From IMG/VR virus record IMGVR_UViG_2541047760_000006: a stretch of DNA of 40,445 bases; one strand, given 5' to 3'. The notes below the pieces were generated by a model. That model was not told where the DNA came from. It searched no databases and worked only from the letters and a program-made list of their open reading frames with translations. The translations under genes and the position numbers were made by a program. Shown piece after piece: positions 2,361 through 15,341 of this stretch (its first letter is position 1; each line of letters begins with the position of its first letter). Source of the stretch: a virus (Duplodnaviria > Heunggongvirae > Uroviricota > Caudoviricetes).

Positions 2361-2493
2361 TTTTTGGGACTCCTGGCTGATTAAGTATGTCGATAAGGCG
2401 TTTCCATCCGTCACGTAATTTACGGGTGATTCGTTCAAGTAAAGATTCGGAAGGGCAGCCAGCAACAGGCCACCCTGCAATGGCATATTGCAT
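2329..2493 (-). CDS. cIII: cIII (FtsH protease inhibitor, stabilises cII)
   Basis: Not in the ORF track (54 aa). Reverse complement of 2401-2493 reads ATG CAA TAT GCC ATT GCA GGG TGG CCT... = MQYAIAGWPVAGCPSESLLERITRKLRD..., the lambda cIII sequence; stop at 2329-2331 overlaps the kil start. Confidence 0.85.
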   Translation of the reverse strand: MQYAIAGWPVAGCPSESLLERITRKLRDGWKRLIDILNQPGVPKNGSNNYGYPD

Positions 2494-2565
2494 GGTGTGC
2501 TCCTTATTTATACATAACGAAAAACGCCTCGAGTGAAGCGTAATTGGTATGCGGTAACGCCGCGC

Positions 2566-3530: not shown

Positions 3531-4112
3531 ATGAACAACTCATGGTGGCAGGAACTAATGCATTTTTTCCTGCAAGGAATGACACTTAAACAGTTGATTC
3601 ATATGCTAATCATCCTGATCATATTGATTATTGTTATGCCGGTAAGCGTAAAAGAATGGATAAACCTGCATAGTCCAGAAATCCTTCCTCATTACTGGAT
3701 GTATTACATCCTGTTGTTTTGCGTTAGCTATGTGCTTAACGGCGTTGTTAATTCCGCTTATCACGCTGTGACTGAAAGAATTGAGGTATTCGCTGCTCAG
3801 AAGCGCAAATCTAAAGAAGAAAAATATGTGCAAGATTTGTTTGATTCGTTAACTCTTGGAGAAAGAGCGTATTTGGCATTCGCTGTAGCCGCTAATAACC
3901 AGCTACAAACGGAAAAGGGCGCTCATGAATCAATTTCATTGCTCAAAAAAGGACTCCTCGTTCGAAGGCCTCCTGCTGTTGGATATCCTGATACCGACCG
4001 TTTCGTTATCCCTGAAAGCTATAGACATGAGTGCTACATTAGGTTTGCCGGGAAGGCAGACAGCCTTATGGATGAACTTATCGCTCAGGATAAGCATGGC
4101 AAAAACAAGTAA
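3531..4112 (+). CDS. sieB: SieB superinfection-exclusion (abortive infection) protein
   Basis: 193-aa translation MNNSWWQELMHFFLQG... with hydrophobic N-terminal segments; lambda sieB-like in sequence, size and opposite-strand position between ral and N. ATG at 3531 follows an aaagag purine stretch. Confidence 0.85.
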   Translation: MNNSWWQELMHFFLQGMTLKQLIHMLIILIILIIVMPVSVKEWINLHSPEILPHYWMYYILLFCVSYVLNGVVNSAYHAVTERIEVFAAQKRKSKEEKYVQDLFDSLTLGERAYLAFAVAANNQLQTEKGAHESISLLKKGLLVRRPPAVGYPDTDRFVIPESYRHECYIRFAGKADSLMDELIAQDKHGKNK

Positions 4113-4128
4113 TTAGCAAATGAATTTA

Positions 4129-4401
4129 TCATCTCGCCGTCAGTTGTTTTGATTTCCGGTAGCCTGCCGCGTAAAGAGCTACGTTCGGAAGACAAGTTGA
4201 ACCTTCATATTTTCTGGTCAACGTTGTCAGAGTTATCACTTCTGCTCTCATTGCTGGTTTGAGCTTGCATTGCAAGACCACTCGTGAAGGGGTTGGCCTG
4301 TGTAGCTTGTCGGAGCTGATCGCCTCCTGACTTTGCAGATTTGCGCGACGAGCTCTACGGCGAGAAGCTGCGGTGCCTTTAAATTCTGTTTTTCTGGACA
4401 T
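4129..4401 (-). CDS. N: N-type transcription antiterminator (P22 gene 24-like)
   Basis: Internal ATG at 4399-4401 gives MSRKTEFKGTAASRRRARRANLQSQ... with an Arg-rich RNA-binding motif and a C-terminus ...VALYAAGYRKSKQLTAR close to P22 gp24. Unlike lambda N. First gene downstream of the putative pL. Confidence 0.85.
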   Translation of the reverse strand: MSRKTEFKGTAASRRRARRANLQSQEAISSDKLHRPTPSRVVLQCKLKPAMRAEVITLTTLTRKYEGSTCLPNVALYAAGYRKSKQLTAR

Positions 4402-4500
4402 GGATTCCTCCCGAATAAACTTTGGCGATGCAATCTCGAAGCTCCTCCTGAGACGGTTGCTTCGGCATTGCATCCCACAGCTTATGTGGTTGGGTGATCT

Positions 4501-4548
4501 GGCTTTTCAGCCACGTAGTCGAGAGTCGACGTTGTTTAAAGAGCCTGC
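4501..4548 (-). promoter_or_regulatory. nutL: nutL candidate (boxA + boxB)
   Basis: On the minus strand: boxA-like GGCTCTTTAAACAAC (plus 4534-4548) followed about 25 nt later by GGCTGAAAAGCC (plus 4501-4512). The decamer GCTGAAAAGC also occurs in the nutR candidate. Confidence 0.55.
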
Positions 4549-4593
4549 CAGTCTGTTCCATTTGGCTTCCAGCGTCCTGCTGACGGTTAAATA

Positions 4594-4680
4594 GTACGAT
4601 ATGTACTTTACAAGATCAATACAATTTGTTGTAAGTTGGCGTGGTTTTTTATAACGCTTTGTATTTAATAGTGTTGTTTT
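4594..4680 (-). promoter_or_regulatory. pL / oL operator-promoter region (candidate)
   Basis: AT-rich interval upstream of N containing palindromes AGTACGATATGTACT and TACAATTTGTTGTA, which share TACA/TGTA half-sites with the cI-cro intergenic region. Confidence 0.45.
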
Positions 4681-4805
4681 TTAGCGTGGATGTATTGCCT
4701 CGGCGATGTAAGGAGAGATCAGAATTGCGTGGTTTAGTGGGTTGCATCTATTTATTTTTCAATAAATATAATTGGTTATGTGTTTTTAGGTGGGCGAACG
4801 TGAGG

Positions 4806-4834
4806 CAAAGAAAACCCGGCGCTGAGGCCGGGTT
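4806..4834 (-). terminator. rho-independent terminator closing the cI-cassette transcript (tIMM analogue)
   Basis: Stem acccggc/gccgggt with loop gctgag (4814-4834); on the minus strand it is followed by a U-rich run (plus aaagaaaa 4806-4813). Immediately 3' of the 4838 stop. Confidence 0.55.
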
Positions 4835-4837
4835 GTA

Positions 4838-5590
4838 TTATGCTGCAAGTCTCTTAACCCAAGTCTCTCTTTTGGAGAATGGTAGAACTTGGCTTGATTC
4901 ATGGAAGAGTAAGGAGAGTTGTTGCATTTGATCACCAATTGCTTCGCTGTCTATAACAACAAATCTGTTGTTATACTCCTCACTTGAAGCTTTAAGATCA
5001 ATTAGTTTCCCAAGCAATGAGTAAGCACTATTCCAGCTTCCTCCGTGTTTCACGCTTGATGTAAAAACGTATTTAGGTATGTCGGTTTTTATTGTTACAG
5101 GGACGGTAATTTGATGTCCACTCAAGCCATATACGTTTTCACGAAGAGAAAGTGCGTCTCTAAGCTCTGTGTGATATAGATAATCAATAACCATACTTTC
5201 AAACTTTTCAGCTTGAACTGGCTGATACCAGTCTAACGACAAAGTTGATGCGAGTATACCAGCTCTAATTATGTTCGATGTAATCGCACCGACATCCTTT
5301 TCTGTTGCCCAAGCAATGATTTCTCCTCGAGCATTGAGTTCTGCGCCTTCTTTAAGCAGTAATTGTCGTATCTCATCAAGTCGTTTTTTGGTAAGCGAGA
5401 TCCCTCTTGCCTCCATATTCATTAAGGCATCGCATCTGTCACTAACTAAATACCTACCATTGACTTCACGGATAAAGGCACCGACATGCTCTCCATCATC
5501 ACAGTAAGTGAATGGACTGATAATTCTCAAGGTCTTGCCTATTGGATGGCATTCGAAACCTAGTTGTGAGATCACTGTTGAGCACATCAT
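4838..5590 (-). CDS. hypothetical protein, second gene of the rex-slot cassette
   Basis: 250-aa ORF, MMCSTVISQLGFECHPIGKTLRIISPFTYCDDGEHVGAFIREVNGRYLV..., predicted soluble. ATG overlaps the upstream stop (ATGA), implying translational coupling. No recognisable family; not RexA or RexB. Confidence 0.8.
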   Translation of the reverse strand: MMCSTVISQLGFECHPIGKTLRIISPFTYCDDGEHVGAFIREVNGRYLVSDRCDALMNMEARGISLTKKRLDEIRQLLLKEGAELNARGEIIAWATEKDVGAITSNIIRAGILASTLSLDWYQPVQAEKFESMVIDYLYHTELRDALSLRENVYGLSGHQITVPVTIKTDIPKYVFTSSVKHGGSWNSAYSLLGKLIDLKASSEEYNNRFVVIDSEAIGDQMQQLSLLFHESSQVLPFSKRETWVKRLAA

Positions 5591-6144
5591 ATTCCAAACC
5601 CCATTTGCCCCGACTCATCTTCAAGCGGTAAAGGTATTCTCCCAGAGTAAGTTATGTTCAGATGTTTACAGAAGTAATTCCAATACCCTACCAGGTCATC
5701 TGGGTTTATGTCATCTTCGATTGGAAACGCTATTCTATCACTATAGTATCCAGCTTCTTCATAGTATACATGGTAGTGAGCACCGTAAATGATATCTTGG
5801 TACTTCGGATGATCGACCTTGTAACTATTCGTGTGTTTGTCAAAGTGATAGGTATCTACCGCGAAAACCCTCTTGTTATGATAGAAAGCAATAATATTTA
5901 TTTTAGGGTAAGAAATCGGGTCATCAGGTTCTGAATCCTGATCTGGTTTCCATTTCAGTTCAAACTTTAGCCCTTGTATAGGTATACAATCCTCATCCAA
6001 GGGGATGATATGGGCTTGTAGCCACATATCAGAGCGACTTGGTTTCTGTTTCCATTTAACGCCAGAAAAGTTAACTATTTTTTTACAATAAAGTACTTTA
6101 TCAACTTCTACTTGGCTTGGCTGATAATCATCTATTTTTGCCAA
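5587..6144 (-). CDS. hypothetical protein, first gene of the rex-slot cassette
   Basis: 185-aa ORF, MAKIDDYQPSQVEVDKVLYCKKIVNFSGVKWKQKPS..., His/Tyr-rich segment AHYHVYYEEAGYY. The track start at 6144 is a TTG codon; the true start is uncertain. Begins 40 nt downstream of the cI stop, same strand. AT-rich relative to neighbours. Confidence 0.75.
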   Translation of the reverse strand: MAKIDDYQPSQVEVDKVLYCKKIVNFSGVKWKQKPSRSDMWLQAHIIPLDEDCIPIQGLKFELKWKPDQDSEPDDPISYPKINIIAFYHNKRVFAVDTYHFDKHTNSYKVDHPKYQDIIYGAHYHVYYEEAGYYSDRIAFPIEDDINPDDLVGYWNYFCKHLNITYSGRIPLPLEDESGQMGFGI

Positions 6145-6183
6145 TGTTTACCGCCCTGTAAATTGTAGATAAAAGTGGTTTCA

Positions 6184-6843
6184 TCACCCAAACGTCTCTT
6201 CAGGCCATTGGCTGGCGATAACTTTCCCCACAACGGAACAACTCTCATTGCATGGGATCATTGGGTATTGTGGGTTTAGTGGCTGTAGAAACACCTGACC
6301 GCTATCCCTGATCAGTTTCTTGAAGGTAAATTCATCACCACCAAGTCTGGCTATGCAGAAATCGCCGGGCTCAACAGCTTGCTCAGGGTCAACCAGAATT
6401 AACATCCCGTCAGGAAAGCTGGGTTTGGAACCTGTTGGTGCGGTCATTGAGTTACCTTCAACCTCAAGCCAGAATGCAGAGTCACTGGCTTTTTTGGTTG
6501 TGCTTACCAATCTCTCCGCATCGCCTTTGGTAAAGGTTCTGAGTTCTGGAGAGAACATCCCAGCCTGAACATGAGAAAAAACAGGGTACTCATATTGTTT
6601 TTTAACTGGGGCCGATGAGTATTCGCCAACAGGTGAAAATGTCCCGTCGTGGTTGAATGATATGTTATCAATACCAAGGTATTTAAACACCACACCAATA
6701 TCACTAAGAGATGGATGACGAGATCCGCGCAACCAGTGTCCAATCCCACCCTGCGTCATACCTAGCTCTTCGGCTAACTTCTCTTGAGTTATGCCGAGCT
6801 CTTTCATTCTGGATCTAGCCAGTTCATACCATTTCATTTTCAT
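6184..6843 (-). CDS. cI: CI prophage repressor (HTH DNA-binding domain + LexA-like S24 autocleavage domain)
   Basis: C-terminal ~140 aa ([18 protein letters not shown]...[16 protein letters not shown]) matches the lambda cI C-terminal domain. N-terminal HTH ([37 protein letters not shown]) differs from lambda. Start at 6843 or 6837; the track ORF extends to 6885. Confidence 0.92.
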
Positions 6844-6954
6844 GTCCTTATTATTACGCTCTGTACTGGAACCATCCATGCACAATGTGTATTTTTACTT
6901 GTATTCGCAAAGTACATATTGTATTTTTTTATTCGTGTTTACTATGGAGGGCAT
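6844..6954. promoter_or_regulatory. divergent pRM / oR / pR control region
   Basis: 111-bp AT-rich interval between divergent cI and cro with repeated TACA..TGTA-type elements (TGCACAATGTGTA, TTACTTGTAT, GTACATATTGTAT) and a ggaggg ribosome-binding site before cro. Confidence 0.6.
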
Positions 6955-7255: not shown

Positions 7256-7273
7256 TATGCGTTTCCACGCATA
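7256..7273 (+). terminator. tR1-position hairpin (candidate rho-dependent terminator region)
   Basis: Inverted repeat atgcgt-ttcc-acgcat between cro and cII with no U-tract; assigned by position only. Confidence 0.3.
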
Positions 7274-7311
7274 CCTTTCAACTAACTATTCACTATTGGA
7301 AATCTTAAGAA

Positions 7312-7611
7312 ATGGAAAGAACAAGTTACAGCAAACTATCACAGCGTGACGTTGATCGCGCAGAAACAGATTTACTTATCAATCTGTCAGCTATTACCCA
7401 GCGCGGTCTGGCAAAGATGATTGGCTGTCATGAATCGAAGATAAGCAGAACGGACTGGAGATTTATTGCTTCGGTCTTGTGTGCTTTCGGAATGGCATCA
7501 GACATCAGTCCGATTAGCAGGGCTTTTAAGTATGCGCTTGATGGACTCACCAATAAAAAACGCCCGGTGTGCAAGACCGAGCGTTCTGATCAAATACAAA
7601 TGGAATTTTAA
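7312..7611 (+). CDS. cII: CII transcriptional activator
   Basis: 99-aa translation ends ...LTNKKRPVCKTERSDQIQMEF, closely matching the lambda cII C-terminus (ILTNKKRPAATERSEQIQMEF). Confidence 0.92.
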   Translation: MERTSYSKLSQRDVDRAETDLLINLSAITQRGLAKMIGCHESKISRTDWRFIASVLCAFGMASDISPISRAFKYALDGLTNKKRPVCKTERSDQIQMEF

Positions 7612-7908: not shown

Positions 7909-8856
7909 ATGAGCAATACAGCAAAAATCTACGATTTCAGCGCCGCACACGAGCGCAGGAGCAACAGGATGGAGAACCAGAAAACTGGTTACATTCCGTT
8001 GTACCGGAGCATTCTGAAACAGTCATGGGCGAAAGATGTTTATCTTCGCACCCTGTGGGAAAACCTTCTCCTGAATGCCGCCAGAAAGCCATACAAAGCG
8101 AATTTCAAAGGTCATGAATGGCATCTGCAACCCGGTCAACTGGTTGTGACAGCAGCTGATTTAGGTCTTCAGTTATGCGACAGGCATGGCAAGCCGGCAA
8201 GCCGTGATCAGGTTGAGCGGATGCTTCAGGTTTTTGTGAAAGAGGGGATGATCACCATTGATGGAGAGAAGCAAAAAGGTCGTGTGATTACCATCACAAA
8301 TTACCATGAATATGCTCAAAAAATGGACGATTCGCCAGCACATGAAGCCGCACAAACAACCGCACATGATGCCGCACATGACGAAGCCAGTAATGGCGCG
8401 GCTTTCAGCGTACATGCCGCACATGAAAGCGCACATGAAGCCGCACAAACAACCGCACATCATGAACAAGAAGGTATTAACAAGAATATAAATAATACCC
8501 CCCTACCCCCCAATGGGGGAGGCGATGGGCAGGTTAAACCTGAACGTCGCAAGGCAGAACGAATCGACTACGAATCCTTCCTGAACGCCTACAACACCGA
8601 AGTCGGTGACAGACTTCCACACGCTGTTGCGGTCAACGAGAAACGCAAACGCCGCCTGAAGAAAATCATCCCGCAACTGAAAACGCCAAATGTGGACGGT
8701 TTCAGAGCGTATGTCAGGGCGTTTGTGCATCAGGCCAAGCCGTTTTACTTCGGAGACAACGACACGGGCTGGACGGCTGATTTTGATTACCTGCTGAGGG
8801 AAGATTCGTTAACGGGAGTACGGGAAGGGAAGTTTGCAGACAGGGGGATTGCATGA
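7909..8856 (+). CDS. replication initiator / replisome organiser (O-like, P22 gene 18 analogue)
   Basis: 315-aa ORF directly upstream of and overlapping (ATGA) the DnaB-like helicase gene; contains a low-complexity linker ([18 protein letters not shown]...) encoded by direct DNA repeats, as in origin-containing initiator genes. Confidence 0.85.
8335..8520 (+). repeat. putative origin of replication: iteron-like direct repeats plus AT-rich tract inside the initiator gene
   Basis: The 27-mer catgaagccgcacaaacaaccgcacat occurs at 8341-8367 and 8443-8469; at least five copies of ccgcacatga-type units lie between; followed by AT-rich 8471-8497 and inverted repeat ccccc/ggggg at 8506-8519. Confidence 0.6.
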
Positions 8857-10229
8857 GACAGGATATCGAAGCGAGCGTTATCGGTGGCCTGCTGATTGGT
8901 GGATTAACACCAACCGCCAGCGACGTTCTGGCAACGCTGGAGCCGGAAGCGTTTTCAATTCCGCTCTACCGGAAAGCCTTCGAGGTTATCCGCAAGCAGG
9001 CGCGAAACAGAAACCTAATCGACGCGCTGATGGTTGCCGAGGAGTGCGGAGAGGAGCATTTCACGTCAATCCTGATGACCAGCAAAAACTGCCCGAGTGC
9101 CGCAAACCTGAAGGGATATGCCGGAATGGTCGCGGATAACTATCACCGCCGTCTGGTGCTGGAAATCATGGATGAAATGCGTGAACCAATCCAAAGCGGA
9201 ACCATCGACGCATCGAGTCAGGCGATGGATGAGCTTGTAAAGCGTCTTTCAGCCATCAGAAAGCCCCGTGACGAGGTTAAACCTGTACGGTTAGGGGAAA
9301 TCATCACCGACTACACTGACACGCTTGACAGGCGTCTGAGGAACGGAGAAGAGTCCGATACCCTGAAGACCGGAATCGAAGAACTTGATGCCATCACCGG
9401 AGGGATGAACGCGGAAGACCTGGTGATAATCGCCGCTCGTCCTGGTATGGGTAAAACCGAACTGGCGCTGAAGATTGCCGAAGGCGTTGCAAGTCGTGTT
9501 ATTCCTGGTTCTGACATCCGGCGTGGAGTATTGATTTTCTCAATGGAAATGAGCGCATTACAGATTGCAGAGCGAAGCATTGCCAACGCCGGGAGGATGT
9601 CGGTTAGCGTACTGCGAAATCCTGCATCGATGGATGACGAGGGCTGGGCGCGTGTTGCTAACGGCATGAGTCAGCTTGCAGATTTGGATGTATGGGTAGT
9701 CGATGCCTCGCGGTTATCGGTCGAAGAAATACGCTCAATCGCAGAACGGCACAAACAGGAAAATCCAAACCTGTCACTCATCATGGTGGATTATCTTGGC
9801 CTGATTGAGAAGCCGAAAGCAGATCGCAACGACCTCGCAATTGCTCACATCTCCGGAAGCCTGAAGGCGATGGCGAAAGACCTGAAAACACCGGTTATCT
9901 CCCTGAGTCAGCTTTCGCGCGATGTTGAGAAGCGACCAAACAAACGCCCGACAAACGCAGATTTGCGTGATTCAGGAAGCATTGAACAGGACGCAGACTC
10001 AATCATCATGCTCTATCGGGAAGCGGTATATGACGAGAACAGTAGCGCCGCGCCATTTGCTGAAATCATCGTGACGAAAAACCGTTTTGGCTCACTTGGT
10101 ACGGTTTACCAGCGGTTCTGCAACGGACACTTTGTTGCATGTGACCAGGATGAAGCCAGGCAGATTTGCACAGCATCAAATGCACCTGCTGCACGTGGCA
10201 GACGATATGCACAAGGGGCTGACGTATGA
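8853..10229 (+). CDS. DnaB-family replicative helicase (P22 gene 12-like)
   Basis: 458-aa product with Walker [10 protein letters not shown], Walker [10 protein letters not shown] and DnaB C-terminal motifs ([17 protein letters not shown]); same length as P22 gp12. Confidence 0.95.
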
Positions 10230-13832: not shown

Positions 13833-14915
13833 TTAGAACTGATAAACCAGACCTACAGCGACGATGTCGTCGGTATCAATACCAGCTGTTTTGGTAAACT
13901 TACTATCGTCAATTAAGTTGATTTTGTAATCAACAAAAGTGGACATGTTTTTATTAAAGTAGTAAGTAGCACCGACATCGACATACTTGACTAAGTCTCG
14001 GTCACCATGAACACCAAGGTCTTTACCTTTTGACTGAAGGTAAGCAACAGATGGACGCAGACCGAAGTCAAACTGATATTGTGCTACTGCTTCAAAGTTT
14101 TGTGCTTTGTTTGCAATATGGTTATTACCAAAAACGGTCATATTCTGAGTTTCAGAATATGTGGTAGCCAGATAGATATTGTTCGCATCATATTTCAGGC
14201 CTGCAGCCCATACTTCCGCATTTTTGCCGGAGGCATTGAATTTGCTCTTACCATAGGCGACCTGACCGTCAGTGCGATCTGATTTAGCATAGGTTGCACC
14301 CACGCCGAATCCTTCATACTCATAAGTAGTGGAGAAACCGAAACCATCACCATTGGCTTCAGTTACGTCAGTGCGGTCATTTTTACCCTGATACTGAGCA
14401 GCAAAGTTCAGGCCATCGACCAGACCAAAGAAGTCGTTGTTACGATAAGTTGCAACACCAGTAGTGCGACCAGTCATGAACACATCTGTTTGGGTCCAGG
14501 TATCACCACCGAATTCTGGCAGAACGTCAGTCCACGCACCGATGTCGTATGCTACACCGTAGTTACGGCCGTAATCGATTGAGCCGTAATCACCAAATTT
14601 CAGGCCTGCAAATGCAAGACGGGTTTTGTCTTTGGAAGAACCTTGAGATTCAGCACGGTTGCCTTTGAATTCATATTCCCACTGACCGAAACCAGTCAGT
14701 TGATCGTTGATTTGGGTTTCACCTTTGAAGCCAAGACGGGCATAAGTAGTATCACCATCATCTGCATCATTAGAGGAGAAGTAGTGCTTGGCATTAACTT
14801 TCCCGTATAGATCCAGCTTGTTACTGTCTTTATTATAAATTTCAGCTGCCTGAGCAGACATCGCCATCAGTACTGATGCAGCTACAGCAGAAATTGCCAC
14901 TGTTAATTTTTTCAT
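13833..14915 (-). CDS. nmpC: OmpC/OmpF-family general porin (NmpC / Lc-like, phage-borne)
   Basis: Signal peptide [23 protein letters not shown] then [17 protein letters not shown]... and C-terminal ...VAVGLVYQF, classic enterobacterial porin features. Start taken at the internal ATG 14913-14915. AT-rich upstream region 14916-15300. Confidence 0.95.
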
Positions 14916-15341
14916 TGTACGCCCTTTTTTTGAACTTTTATTAAAAAATGATGTCACTGCGCGATAAATATTCATCTAATCAATGTGATTATTTCAAGAT
15001 GTAAGTTTTAGTTTCTCATTTAATTTGTGAAGTAGATCTCTATTTTTATCTGAACCTTTTCTATCTAATCCTATTCATGGCTCTTGTCTGAACAAAAATA
15101 AATCTATTAGCTAATTTATATTAATGGCACTTATTTATAAGTGCTCTATAATTCTTTAGCTTAATTTAAACAAACTAAAAATAACATCGGAAATTATTAA
15201 CTGGTTATTTGTTGAAGTTTTCTTATGCATTTGTGGTGGTGTTTTGAACACTCGGTGGCATTCTCACAAATATCATTTAGTAGTTTACGTACGTAAAAAA
15301 TTGGTTATGCTGTTAAGAGTGGTTACTTCGTCACACAGCTT

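What the first reader, a model, noticed from the sequence alone, without database searches (positions are those of the whole stretch)
4806..6183. Two-gene cassette of unrecognised proteins in the rexAB slot between cI and pL: candidate prophage-encoded exclusion/defence system
On the minus strand, cI (stop 6184) is followed after 40 nt by a 185-aa ORF and a translationally coupled (ATGA) 250-aa ORF, then a terminator hairpin (4814-4834), then the pL/N region. In lambda this exact position holds rexA-rexB, expressed with cI in lysogens. Neither protein resembles RexA (279 aa) or RexB (144 aa, four TM) in size or hydropathy, and I recognise no family for either. The cassette is AT-rich relative to cI and N, consistent with acquisition as a moron.
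Basis: inference. Interest (0 to 1): 0.85.

Follow-up and report, generated by a model that had tools for sequence, protein, structure and literature searches.

The report
Untested two-gene cassette replacing rexAB
A lambda-like prophage of E. coli carries, exactly where phage lambda keeps its rexA-rexB exclusion genes, a conserved pair of uncharacterised soluble proteins that is very probably an anti-phage defence module, already flagged by prediction software but never tested.

Summary
On the minus strand, cI (6184-6879/6885) is followed after 39 nt by orfA (185 aa, 5587-6144, TTG start), orfB (250 aa, 4838-5590, ATGA overlap), a terminator hairpin (4813-4834), then OL/pL and N. DNA homology to lambda, and to phage 2B8 which has the same cI, breaks at the cI stop and at the terminator. 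The 4836-6182 cargo therefore occupies the rexAB slot exactly.

Neither protein resembles RexA or RexB, and both lack membrane segments. The families are not wholly unknown. orfB has a DUF1828 N-domain with a type III secretion chaperone/YbjN-like fold and a DUF1829 C-domain with a PD-(D/E)xK fold but no canonical catalytic triad. orfA belongs to a tiny family with no structural match and an invariant D-H-N-H-H cluster. Both weakly match PADLOC candidate system PDC-M24. Both exact proteins are listed as "predicted novel defense gene" in DefensePredictor (Science 2026), but they are not among its 94 tested units.

The A-then-B pair is conserved down to about 22% identity in Enterobacterales, Aeromonas, Pasteurellaceae and Pseudomonas, nearly always just downstream of a prophage repressor. 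My best reading is a repressor-cotranscribed abortive-infection or exclusion module, with orfA as a metal-dependent effector and orfB as its sensor or regulator. The function is untested.

The parts
6184..6885 (-). cI-type prophage repressor. The ORF runs from TTG at 6885; the start annotated in relatives is ATG at 6879, giving 231 aa. It is 71% identical to lambda cI over residues 24-231.
   Evidence: Pfam HTH_3 and Peptidase_S24; BLASTP against lambda cI, E 2e-111; annotated as cI/LexA family in identical phages.
6145..6183 (-). 39-nt spacer between the cI stop and the orfA start. It has no terminator and holds a purine-rich AGGGCGG 7 nt upstream of the TTG start. It lies inside the swapped cargo.
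   Evidence: Sequence; terminator scan found nothing here; the homology breakpoint is at 6183.
5587..6144 (-). orfA: 185 aa, soluble, mostly beta-strand, in a tiny family. Invariant residues are W31, R92, D97, H104, N106, H123, H125, F158 and P173. It has a conserved but disordered C-terminal [S/G]-G-Q tail. I propose it is a metal-dependent effector.
4838..5590 (-). orfB: 250 aa and soluble. The N-domain (about residues 10-120) is DUF1828 with a type III secretion chaperone/YbjN-like fold. The C-domain (about residues 129-250) is DUF1829 with a PD-(D/E)xK restriction-endonuclease-like fold that lacks a canonical D...(D/E)xK triad. The C-terminus is ...RLAA. I propose it is the sensor/regulator partner.
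4813..4834 (-). Intrinsic-terminator-like hairpin followed by a T-rich tail, at the end of the cI-orfA-orfB unit. It belongs to the conserved flank shared with lambda, 2B8 and HK542, not to the cargo. It corresponds to the terminator annotated in the HK542/HK244 immunity regions.
   Evidence: Terminator scan; homology of 4713-4834 to lambda DNA just downstream of rexB and of 4129-4835 to 2B8; 'terminator' feature under the HK244/HK542 matches.
4836..6182 (-). The exchanged cargo segment (spacer, orfA and orfB) that replaces rexA-rexB.
   Evidence: blastn breakpoints against 2B8 (4835/6183) and lambda (4834/6183).
4593..4611 (.). Operator-like sequence in the OL/pL region, matching an OR sequence at 6907-6923 in 15 of 17 bases.
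   Evidence: Script comparison of the two intergenic regions.
4129..4401 (-). N antiterminator gene, the first gene of the pL operon.
   Evidence: Pfam N_peptide, E 1e-32; annotated as N in PhiR57_1.
3531..4112 (+). sieB superinfection-exclusion gene, a neighbouring and separate known exclusion function.
   Evidence: Pfam SieB, E 9e-22; phrog_1301, E 1e-121.

Best explanation
orfA-orfB is a self-contained two-protein anti-phage module of the abortive-infection or exclusion type, carried as exchangeable cargo in the rexAB slot of a lambdoid prophage.

**Shown**
- It sits between the cI stop and the immunity terminator, with no terminator in between.
- The two genes overlap by ATGA.
- The A-then-B pair is conserved as a unit across gamma-proteobacterial prophages.
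- Neither protein is RexA, RexB or any characterised family.

**Inferred**
- The pair is transcribed with cI from PRM in lysogens, and the two proteins are made together and form a complex.
- orfA is the effector. It has a novel beta-rich fold, and its invariant Asp97/His104/Asn106/His123/His125 cluster looks like a metal-dependent catalytic site.
- orfA is kept at a low level, since it has non-ATG start codons in most lineages.
- orfB holds orfA in check. orfB combines a chaperone-like peptide-binding domain with a nuclease-fold domain that appears to have lost the canonical catalytic triad.
- The conserved, disordered C-terminal tail of orfA is a candidate ligand for the chaperone-like domain of orfB.
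- A superinfecting phage releases or activates orfA. This could happen through a phage protein or DNA binding orfB, or through decay of orfB, whose C-terminus resembles an ssrA-type ClpX tag. The result is arrest or death of the infected cell, or damage to the phage.
For: **Position**
- The breakpoints against lambda and 2B8 are flush with the cI stop and the terminator.
- The same slot holds rexAB in lambda and bstA in BTP1, and is a documented mosaic hotspot (PMC8585504).
- Phages with the same cI hold other cargo there.
- There is no terminator between cI and orfA, and one after orfB.

**Conservation as a unit**
- A lies immediately upstream of B in 17 of 17 loci, mostly with a 4-bp overlap. 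The same holds in a Pseudomonas D3-like phage.
- The pair sits directly downstream of an S24 or CI-like repressor in Aeromonas, Thorsellia, Photorhabdus, Yersinia, Providencia, Xenorhabdus, Pantoea, a second E. coli allele, an IMG/VR contig and metagenomic contigs.
- One copy stands alone among housekeeping genes, so the pair does not need a phage context.
- Both genes are under purifying selection.

**Defence predictions**
- PADLOC PDC-M24B at E 5e-10 and PDC-M24A at E 5e-4, with both partners matching the two halves of the same candidate system.
- DefensePredictor lists WP_000968518.1 (log-odds 5.64) and WP_001062368.1 (4.90) as predicted novel defence genes. In that study 45% of tested units gave protection.

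**Role assignment**
- The invariant polar cluster in orfA persists across 22-59% identity.
- In orfB, only S157, G158, G194 and D198 are invariant in the nuclease-fold domain, and K173 is not conserved family-wide.
- orfA starts with TTG or GTG in 7 of 12 lineages, and the C-terminal motifs are conserved.
- As a precedent, the DUF1829 protein DS-6B is proposed to be the non-toxic partner of a HipA-like kinase.
Against: - I found no experimental data on this pair. It is not among the 94 units tested in PMC13092281.
- DefensePredictor and PADLOC candidate systems rely partly on genomic context, so they are not independent of the positional argument.
- The PADLOC and Pfam matches for orfA are below curated thresholds.
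- The assignment of effector and regulator rests on conservation patterns only. No structural neighbour identifies orfA as an enzyme.
- PD-(D/E)xK domains are the commonest defence effectors, and non-canonical active sites exist. orfB could therefore be the nuclease.
- Co-transcription with cI and formation of a complex were not tested.
Confidence: 0.55

Rival explanations
1. It is a defence module with the roles reversed. orfB is the effector nuclease, with a non-canonical PD-(D/E)xK site gated by its chaperone-like N-domain. orfA is the sensor, activator or inhibitor.
Against: No D...(D/E)xK can be placed on strands beta2 and beta3. The beta2 N-terminal position is His, and K173 is not invariant across the wider family. 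orfA carries the tighter and more catalytic-looking invariant cluster. The weak start codons fall on orfA, not orfB.
Confidence: 0.22
2. It is a toxin-antitoxin type addiction module whose main role is to stabilise the prophage or mobile element. Any anti-phage effect would be incidental.
For: The organisation is a compact, translationally coupled pair. The pair occurs on different mobile backgrounds, including next to a resolvase and as a stand-alone chromosomal insertion. One partner has weak start codons and the other an ssrA-like C-terminus, which fits a stable toxin with a labile antitoxin. DS-6, which contains a DUF1829 protein, is interpreted as TA-like.
Against: There is no match to any known toxin or antitoxin family, and no HTH or RHH DNA-binding domain typical of type II antitoxins. 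At 185 and 250 aa both proteins are larger than most type II TA components. An integrated prophage has little need for post-segregational killing. The strong preference for the repressor-downstream slot parallels the defence genes rexAB and bstA.
Confidence: 0.12
3. It is an accessory of the lysis-lysogeny switch, for example a modulator of repressor cleavage, induction or establishment, rather than a defence against other phages.
For: The linkage to S24-type repressors is strikingly consistent across four orders of gamma-proteobacteria and down to about 22% identity.
Against: Phages with the same cI and operators carry unrelated cargo (a NYN-domain gene, the HK542 pair, rexAB) or different alleles of this pair. 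The switch therefore works without it. The pair occurs with several different immunity types. It also occurs without any repressor or phage genes.
Confidence: 0.06
4. It is a lysogenic-conversion cargo that benefits the host in ways unrelated to phages, such as stress tolerance or virulence.
For: The cassette is AT-rich, moron-like cargo expressed from a lysogenic promoter. It is common in extra-intestinal pathogenic strains, in Nissle 1917 and in O104:H4 strains.
Against: Both proteins are cytoplasmic, with no signal peptide or membrane segment. The nuclease-fold domain, the similarity to a defence candidate system and the machine-learning prediction all point to nucleic-acid or phage conflict. 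The distribution follows prophages across many genera and niches rather than following pathotypes.
Confidence: 0.05

Closest known systems
Lambda RexA-RexB
   Same: It occupies the same slot to the base: between the cI stop and the immunity terminator, upstream of OL/pL. It is a two-gene cassette on the cI strand and is presumably transcribed from PRM in lysogens. The expected role is exclusion of superinfecting phages.
   Different: There is no sequence similarity (BLASTP E > 1). There is no PADLOC RexA or RexB match, although those models score lambda's own proteins at 9e-110 and 9e-61. Both proteins are soluble, whereas RexB is a multi-pass membrane protein (RexB topology as described in PMC8585504). 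The genes overlap by 4 bp.
PADLOC candidate system PDC-M24 (unpublished two-gene candidate, DUF6978-like A plus DUF1828-type B)
   Same: It has the same two-gene architecture. orfB aligns end to end with PDC-M24B (residues 2-249 against model positions 4-254 of 256, E 5e-10). The C-terminal half of orfA, which includes the H-x-H motif, matches PDC-M24A (E 5e-4).
   Different: The similarity is distant. orfA falls below Pfam's DUF6978 threshold (22 bits against 29.6), and only 5 of 15 family members match it at all. PDC systems are unpublished and unvalidated candidates (PMC11811056). No paper in the searched library mentions PDC-M24.
BstA (Salmonella prophage BTP1)
   Same: It is a prophage defence gene lying directly downstream of the repressor in the cI-N hotspot. 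That synteny is conserved across genera, and the gene is highly expressed in lysogens (PMC8585504).
   Different: BstA is a single protein with its own DNA anti-BstA (aba) element. No homology was detected with PADLOC, Pfam or PHROGs.
DS-6 / HipAD (DefensePredictor)
   Same: It is a validated two-protein defence system in which one partner carries a DUF1829 (PDDEXK-clan) domain and is proposed to be the non-toxic, DNA-binding partner.
   Different: The partner there is a HipA-like kinase, and the DUF1829 domain is fused to DUF3037 rather than DUF1828. orfA is unrelated to kinases.
Type III secretion chaperones and YbjN/DUF2170 family proteins (fold of the orfB N-domain)
   Different: Sequence identity is only 5-13%. 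In orfB the fold is fused to a nuclease-fold domain and carries its own invariant residues C3, C14, D32, D51 and E90.

Membership tests
RexAB (lambda exclusion system) | Sequence homology to RexA and RexB | tested here: not met
   BLASTP of orfA and orfB against lambda RexA and RexB gives E > 1. There is no RexA or RexB match in PADLOC at E <= 1, while lambda's own proteins score 9e-110 and 9e-61.
RexAB (lambda exclusion system) | One partner is a multi-pass membrane protein (RexB) | tested here: not met
   The maximum 19-residue Kyte-Doolittle hydropathy is 0.45 (orfA) and 1.19 (orfB), so there is no membrane segment.
RexAB (lambda exclusion system) | Location between cI and the immunity terminator, on the cI strand | tested here: met
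   Homology to lambda is flush with the cI stop (6183) and with the DNA just downstream of rexB (4713-4834).
PADLOC PDC-M24 candidate system | Adjacent genes matching the PDC-M24A and PDC-M24B profiles | tested here: inconclusive
   The B profile matches full-length at E 5e-10. The A profile matches only partially (residues 104-163) at E 5e-4. Only 3 or fewer of 15 orfA relatives match any one PDC-M24A model. PADLOC's own system-calling thresholds were not available.
Pfam DUF1828 | Score above the gathering threshold | tested here: met
   orfB scores 33.5 bits against a cut-off of 22, over residues 26-110. Relatives carry PF08861 in precomputed annotation.
Pfam DUF1829 / PD-(D/E)xK clan | Restriction-endonuclease-like alpha-beta-beta-beta-alpha-beta fold | tested here: met
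Pfam DUF1829 / PD-(D/E)xK clan | Catalytic D...(D/E)xK residues on strands beta2 and beta3 | tested here: not met
   The beta2 N-terminal position is His159. Strand beta3 carries K173-x-x-F-T177 with no acidic residue, and K173 is not invariant in the wider family. Residues were mapped from predicted secondary structure only, with no 3D superposition, so a relocated active site is not excluded.
Pfam DUF6978 | Score above the gathering threshold | tested here: not met
   orfA scores 22 bits against a cut-off of 29.6, over residues 104-164 only. Five of 15 relatives match, with a best E of 1e-4.
Type II toxin-antitoxin systems | A known toxin fold plus an antitoxin with a DNA-binding (HTH/RHH/AbrB) domain | tested here: not met
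   No toxin or antitoxin family appears in Pfam, NCBIfam or PADLOC. No HTH was found in either protein.
Type II toxin-antitoxin systems | One partner is toxic alone and neutralised by the other; the antitoxin is labile | not testable with these tools
   There are only indirect hints: non-ATG starts on orfA in 7 of 12 lineages, and an ssrA-like [LIV][AV][AS] C-terminus on orfB in 11 of 12.
Validated anti-phage defence system | Reduced plating or plaque size of at least one phage when the system is expressed | not testable with these tools
   The pair is predicted only. It appears in Tables S5 and S10 of PMC13092281 but not in Table S6, which lists the 94 tested units.

The most novel reading that the evidence does not exclude
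orfA is the founding member of a previously undescribed class of metal-dependent effector enzymes with a new fold. It is held inactive by a chaperone-like, nuclease-fold partner that recognises a phage component. Together they form a new abortive-infection mechanism that has travelled with prophage repressor operons across gamma-proteobacteria for a long time. It would then contribute to the phage resistance of strains such as E. coli Nissle 1917 and O104:H4.
Probability: 0.25. Interest if true: 0.75.

Novelty: new variant of a known kind. Interest (0 to 1): 0.55.

Why it matters
The cI-N slot is the site of the first abortive-infection system ever described (rexAB) and of BstA. A third, unrelated and widespread occupant would show that this position is a general docking site for lysogen-expressed immunity.

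The pair is common. One allele is in 239 and a second in 61 of 5,426 complete E. coli genomes. Carriers include the probiotic Nissle 1917, the type strain ATCC 11775, uropathogenic strains, and the O104:H4 outbreak lineage.

One protein has no recognisable fold or enzyme family but carries a sharply conserved His/Asp cluster, so a new effector chemistry is possible.

The system is small (1.3 kb), sits in a tractable host, and has clear mutational targets. The claim could be tested in a few weeks. The interest is tempered because the genes are already listed, without comment, among thousands of machine-learning predictions, and because nothing here demonstrates function.

Tried and rejected
- **Homology to RexA/RexB:** rejected.
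- **Sequence search of both proteins and their profiles against PDB:** nothing meaningful. The only low E-value is orfA against the designed six-bladed Kelch protein SAKe6AC-LB (4e-6 for the single sequence, 3e-12 for the profile). No individual stretch passes the threshold, and the score is summed over identical designed repeats matching one beta-hairpin (residues about 70-108). I treat it as an artefact.
- **Known motifs for the orfA D-H-N-H-H cluster:** I considered His-Me/HNH, cupin, 2H-phosphoesterase and metallophosphoesterase signatures. None fits the spacing or the predicted secondary structure, and none appeared in the fold searches. This is reasoning only.
- **NCBIfam:** no hits.
- **Literature searches:** PDC-M24, DUF1828, DUF6978 and the names of the identical phages gave nothing relevant. 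DUF1829 led to the DefensePredictor paper.
- **Finding distant orfA relatives:** pattern scans of viral and metagenome contigs mostly failed. Exact look-ups worked instead.
- **An internal promoter for the cassette:** the promoter-like matches (for example 6162-6134) are no more frequent than in shuffled sequence (5 found against 5.5 expected), so none is claimed.
- **Rfam and tRNA scans:** nothing in the cassette.
Full report
**1. What is in the sequence**

On the minus strand the region reads as follows.
- cI ends at 6184. Its ORF runs from 6885, and the start annotated in relatives is at 6879.
- A 39-nt spacer follows.
- orfA runs 6144..5587 (185 aa, TTG start).
- orfB runs 5590..4838 (250 aa). 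Its ATG overlaps the orfA stop as ATGA.
- A G+C-rich hairpin with a T-rich tail lies at 4834..4813.
- An A+T-rich region follows, then N at 4401..4129.

cI has HTH_3 and Peptidase_S24 domains. N matches the N_peptide family, and sieB lies beyond it on the other strand. An operator-like sequence at 4593-4611 matches one in OR (6907-6923) in 15 of 17 bases, which places OL/pL there.

The cassette is more A+T-rich than its neighbours. GC3 is 0.36 and 0.34, against 0.44 for cI and N and 0.51-0.62 for the replication and recombination genes.

Both ORFs are real genes.
- They match PHROG families at E 6e-67 and 2e-106.
- They have orthologues across many genera.
- They show dN of 0.15-0.30 with saturated dS.
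- The unusual TTG start of orfA is supported by an invariant N-terminal M-A-K in the homologues.

**2. The slot is literally the rexAB slot**

I compared the window with lambda itself.
- Window 6183-6594 matches the 3' part of lambda cI at 93% identity.
- Window 4713-4834 matches the DNA that begins right at the rexB stop codon at 90% identity.
- Nothing in between matches.

Phage 2B8 has the same cI (98% identical DNA) and carries a single NYN-domain gene in the slot. Against it, homology stops at 4835 and resumes at 6183. HK542 and HK244 share the flanks and carry another, unrelated gene pair.

The cargo is therefore 4836-6182. The terminator belongs to the conserved flank. The region between cI and N is a documented mosaic hotspot that also houses bstA in Salmonella phage BTP1 (PMC8585504).

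orfA and orfB have no similarity to RexA or RexB. The same PADLOC models score lambda's own proteins at 1e-110 and 1e-61. Neither protein has a membrane segment.

**3. Where the window comes from and how common the cassette is**

The 1.6-kb region is 100% identical in phages ev017, ev207, PhiR57_1 and PhiR63_2. It is also identical in prophages of E. coli Nissle 1917, ATCC 11775, NU14 and many other strains. In all, 239 of 5,426 complete E. coli genomes carry at least 80% of it.

A second allele, 51% (orfB) and 41% (orfA) identical, sits in the same slot behind different repressors. It is in 61 genomes, including the O104:H4 outbreak lineage.

**4. The pair is an ancient unit tied to prophage repressors**

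In every locus I examined, an orfA homologue lies immediately upstream of an orfB homologue, usually overlapping by 4 bp. This held in 17 of 17 loci in a uniform scan. It also held in a Pseudomonas D3-like phage, where the orfA homologue is unannotated.

The pair follows an S24 or CI-type repressor in all of these:
- Aeromonas
- Thorsellia
- Photorhabdus (where the upstream gene is a small repressor-like gene)
- Yersinia
- Providencia
- Xenorhabdus
- Pantoea
- an IMG/VR contig with only 25% orfA identity
- metagenomic contigs with about 22% identity

There are exceptions. One copy lies next to a resolvase on a short contig. One stands alone among housekeeping genes. One is in an unclear context.

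Two conclusions follow. The pair can exist without a phage around it. Phages with the same repressor also do without it. Together these argue against a core role in the lysis-lysogeny switch.

**5. What the proteins look like**

*orfB* (AlphaFold pLDDT 81) has two domains.
- HHpred results in the DefensePredictor supplement call the C-domain DUF1829, in the PDDEXK clan.

The canonical D...(D/E)xK triad cannot be found, however. The beta2 N-terminal position is His159, and strand beta3 has Lys173 but no acidic residue. Across the wide family only S157, G158, G194 and D198 are invariant in this domain. The N-domain keeps C3, C14, D32, D51 and E90.

*orfA* (pLDDT 82, pTM 0.81) is mostly beta-strand with one helix near each end.
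- It has no significant structural neighbour in the PDB or among viral models.
- Its family is tiny: 20 representatives at E <= 1e-3 among 1.84 billion proteins.
- Invariant residues across 22-59% identity are W31, R92, D97, H104, N106, H123, H125, F158 and P173. An Asp/His/Asn/His/His cluster of this kind is typical of a metal-binding catalytic site. That reading is my inference.
- Its last ten or so residues are predicted to be disordered, yet they carry a conserved [S/G]-G-Q-x-x-hydrophobic motif.

Three further details may bear on regulation.
- orfA starts with TTG or GTG in 7 of 12 lineages.
- orfB always starts with ATG.
- orfB ends in [LIV]-[AV]-[AS] in 11 of 12 lineages (LAA in this window). 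This resembles the ssrA-type ClpX recognition motif, as far as I know.

**6. What is already known about it**

- Both proteins weakly match the two halves of PADLOC's unpublished candidate system PDC-M24: B full-length at E 5e-10, A partial at E 5e-4. orfA's family sits outside Pfam DUF6978 by the curated threshold.
- The exact proteins WP_000968518.1 and WP_001062368.1 appear in Tables S5 and S10 of the DefensePredictor paper (PMC13092281) as "Predicted novel defense gene", with log-odds of 5.64 and 4.90.
- They are not in Table S6, the list of 94 tested transcription units. No DUF1828 protein is listed there either. In that study 45% of tested units protected against at least one phage, and the validation rate rose with log-odds.
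- The same paper validated DS-6 (HipAD). Its DUF1829-containing partner is proposed to be the non-toxic, DNA-binding component.
- No paper in the searchable library discusses PDC-M24, DUF1828 or DUF6978 in a defence context.

The status is therefore predicted by two computational resources, not tested, and not described.

**7. Most likely mechanism**

I think the cassette is a defence module expressed with cI from PRM, and from PRE during establishment, and ended by the shared terminator. This is inferred from the absence of a terminator in the 39-nt spacer and from the analogy with rexAB and bstA.

Translational coupling and strict co-inheritance point to a complex of the two proteins. I assign the effector role to orfA for three reasons:
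- it has a sharply conserved catalytic-looking cluster;
- it has weak start codons;
- the DS-6 precedent makes a DUF1829 protein the non-toxic partner.

I assign the sensor or regulator role to orfB because it has a peptide-binding chaperone-like fold and a nuclease fold without the canonical triad. Its possible degradation tag is a further hint. The conserved disordered tail of orfA is a natural candidate for the peptide bound by the DUF1828 domain.

Activation would come either from a phage product binding orfB or from loss of orfB after phage-induced shut-off. These steps are all inferred.

My confidences are as follows.
- That the cassette is a defence module of some kind: about 0.75.
- That roughly the stated arrangement is right: lower. 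The overall figure of 0.55 for the best explanation reflects the defence reading with the role assignment held loosely.
- The main rival keeps the defence role but makes orfB a non-canonical nuclease effector (0.22).
- A pure addiction module, a switch accessory, and an unrelated conversion function are less likely (sections 2 and 4).

**8. Verdict**

The interpretation as a candidate defence system is reasonable and independently echoed, but it is unproven. The claim that the proteins are wholly unrecognisable is overstated.

It is a new variant of a known kind, namely repressor-linked prophage defence cargo in the cI-N hotspot. Its proteins are uncharacterised, and one has no fold relatives. 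It is a good experimental target of moderate-to-good interest rather than a surprise.

Noticed in passing
window 7267-7284 and 7312-7611; L009 11568-11936: Bury et al. 2018 (PMC5987069) cloned a 'phage repressor (pr)' gene from E. coli Nissle 1917 and reported that it gave partial protection against lambda and Stx phages. By primer mapping, that clone is the cII homologue of this prophage type, not cI. The orfA-orfB cassette and sieB of the Nissle prophage were not part of the clone, so their contribution to Nissle's phage resistance is untested.
   Followed up: partly
L033 2986-3504 (Pseudomonas phage VB_PaD_phPA-G, PP083311.1 about 14515-15033): There is an unannotated orfA homologue carrying the AID...HxNK...HPHLH...GQMGF motifs. 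It overlaps the start of the annotated orfB-like gene by 4 bp. It lies downstream of the CI-like repressor and of a further 216-aa gene that weakly matches PADLOC candidate PDC-S48.
   Followed up: partly
window 4838-4849 (orfB C-terminus ...RLAA) and homologues in L003, L027, L033 and others: The orfB C-terminus is [LIV]-[AV]-[AS] in 11 of 12 divergent homologues, and LAA in four of them. This resembles the ssrA/ClpX C-terminal degradation motif. Whether orfB is a ClpXP substrate is unknown.
   Followed up: no
window 6142-6144 and orfA starts in L003, L008, L015, L018, L029, L031: orfA uses TTG or GTG start codons in 7 of 12 lineages, while orfB always uses ATG. This suggests selection for low orfA translation.
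   Followed up: no
window 13833-14975 (minus strand): A 380-aa ORF lies between the Q antiterminator region and the lysis genes. It is annotated in near-identical prophages as porin OmpC, OmpD or NmpC. It is a second moron-type cargo gene of this prophage.
   Followed up: no
window 7909-10229: The replication module here is an O-like initiator plus a 458-aa ORF that I labelled a possible DnaB-type helicase without testing it. It differs from the O/P module of the otherwise near-identical Nissle 1917 and PhiR57_1 prophages. The window is therefore a mosaic, and no record in the collections matches it end to end (86-87% coverage at best).
   Followed up: partly
window 2448-2506 (minus strand): There is an Rfam Lambda_thermo match (the cIII thermoregulator RNA element) at 88.5 bits. 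It was the only Rfam match in the window.
   Followed up: no
L023 1644-2501 (phage 2B8) and L002 3131-4182 (HK542): Alternative cargos occupy the same slot behind the same or similar cI. One is a 285-aa NYN-domain protein with a weak PADLOC HEC-09 match. The other is an unrelated 206-aa plus 144-aa pair with no family. Both are further untested candidates for repressor-linked defence.
   Followed up: partly
Table S6 of PMC13092281 (unit 'CITO', DS-34): [quoted passage not shown] It is another case of defence cargo directly linked to a prophage repressor.
   Followed up: no
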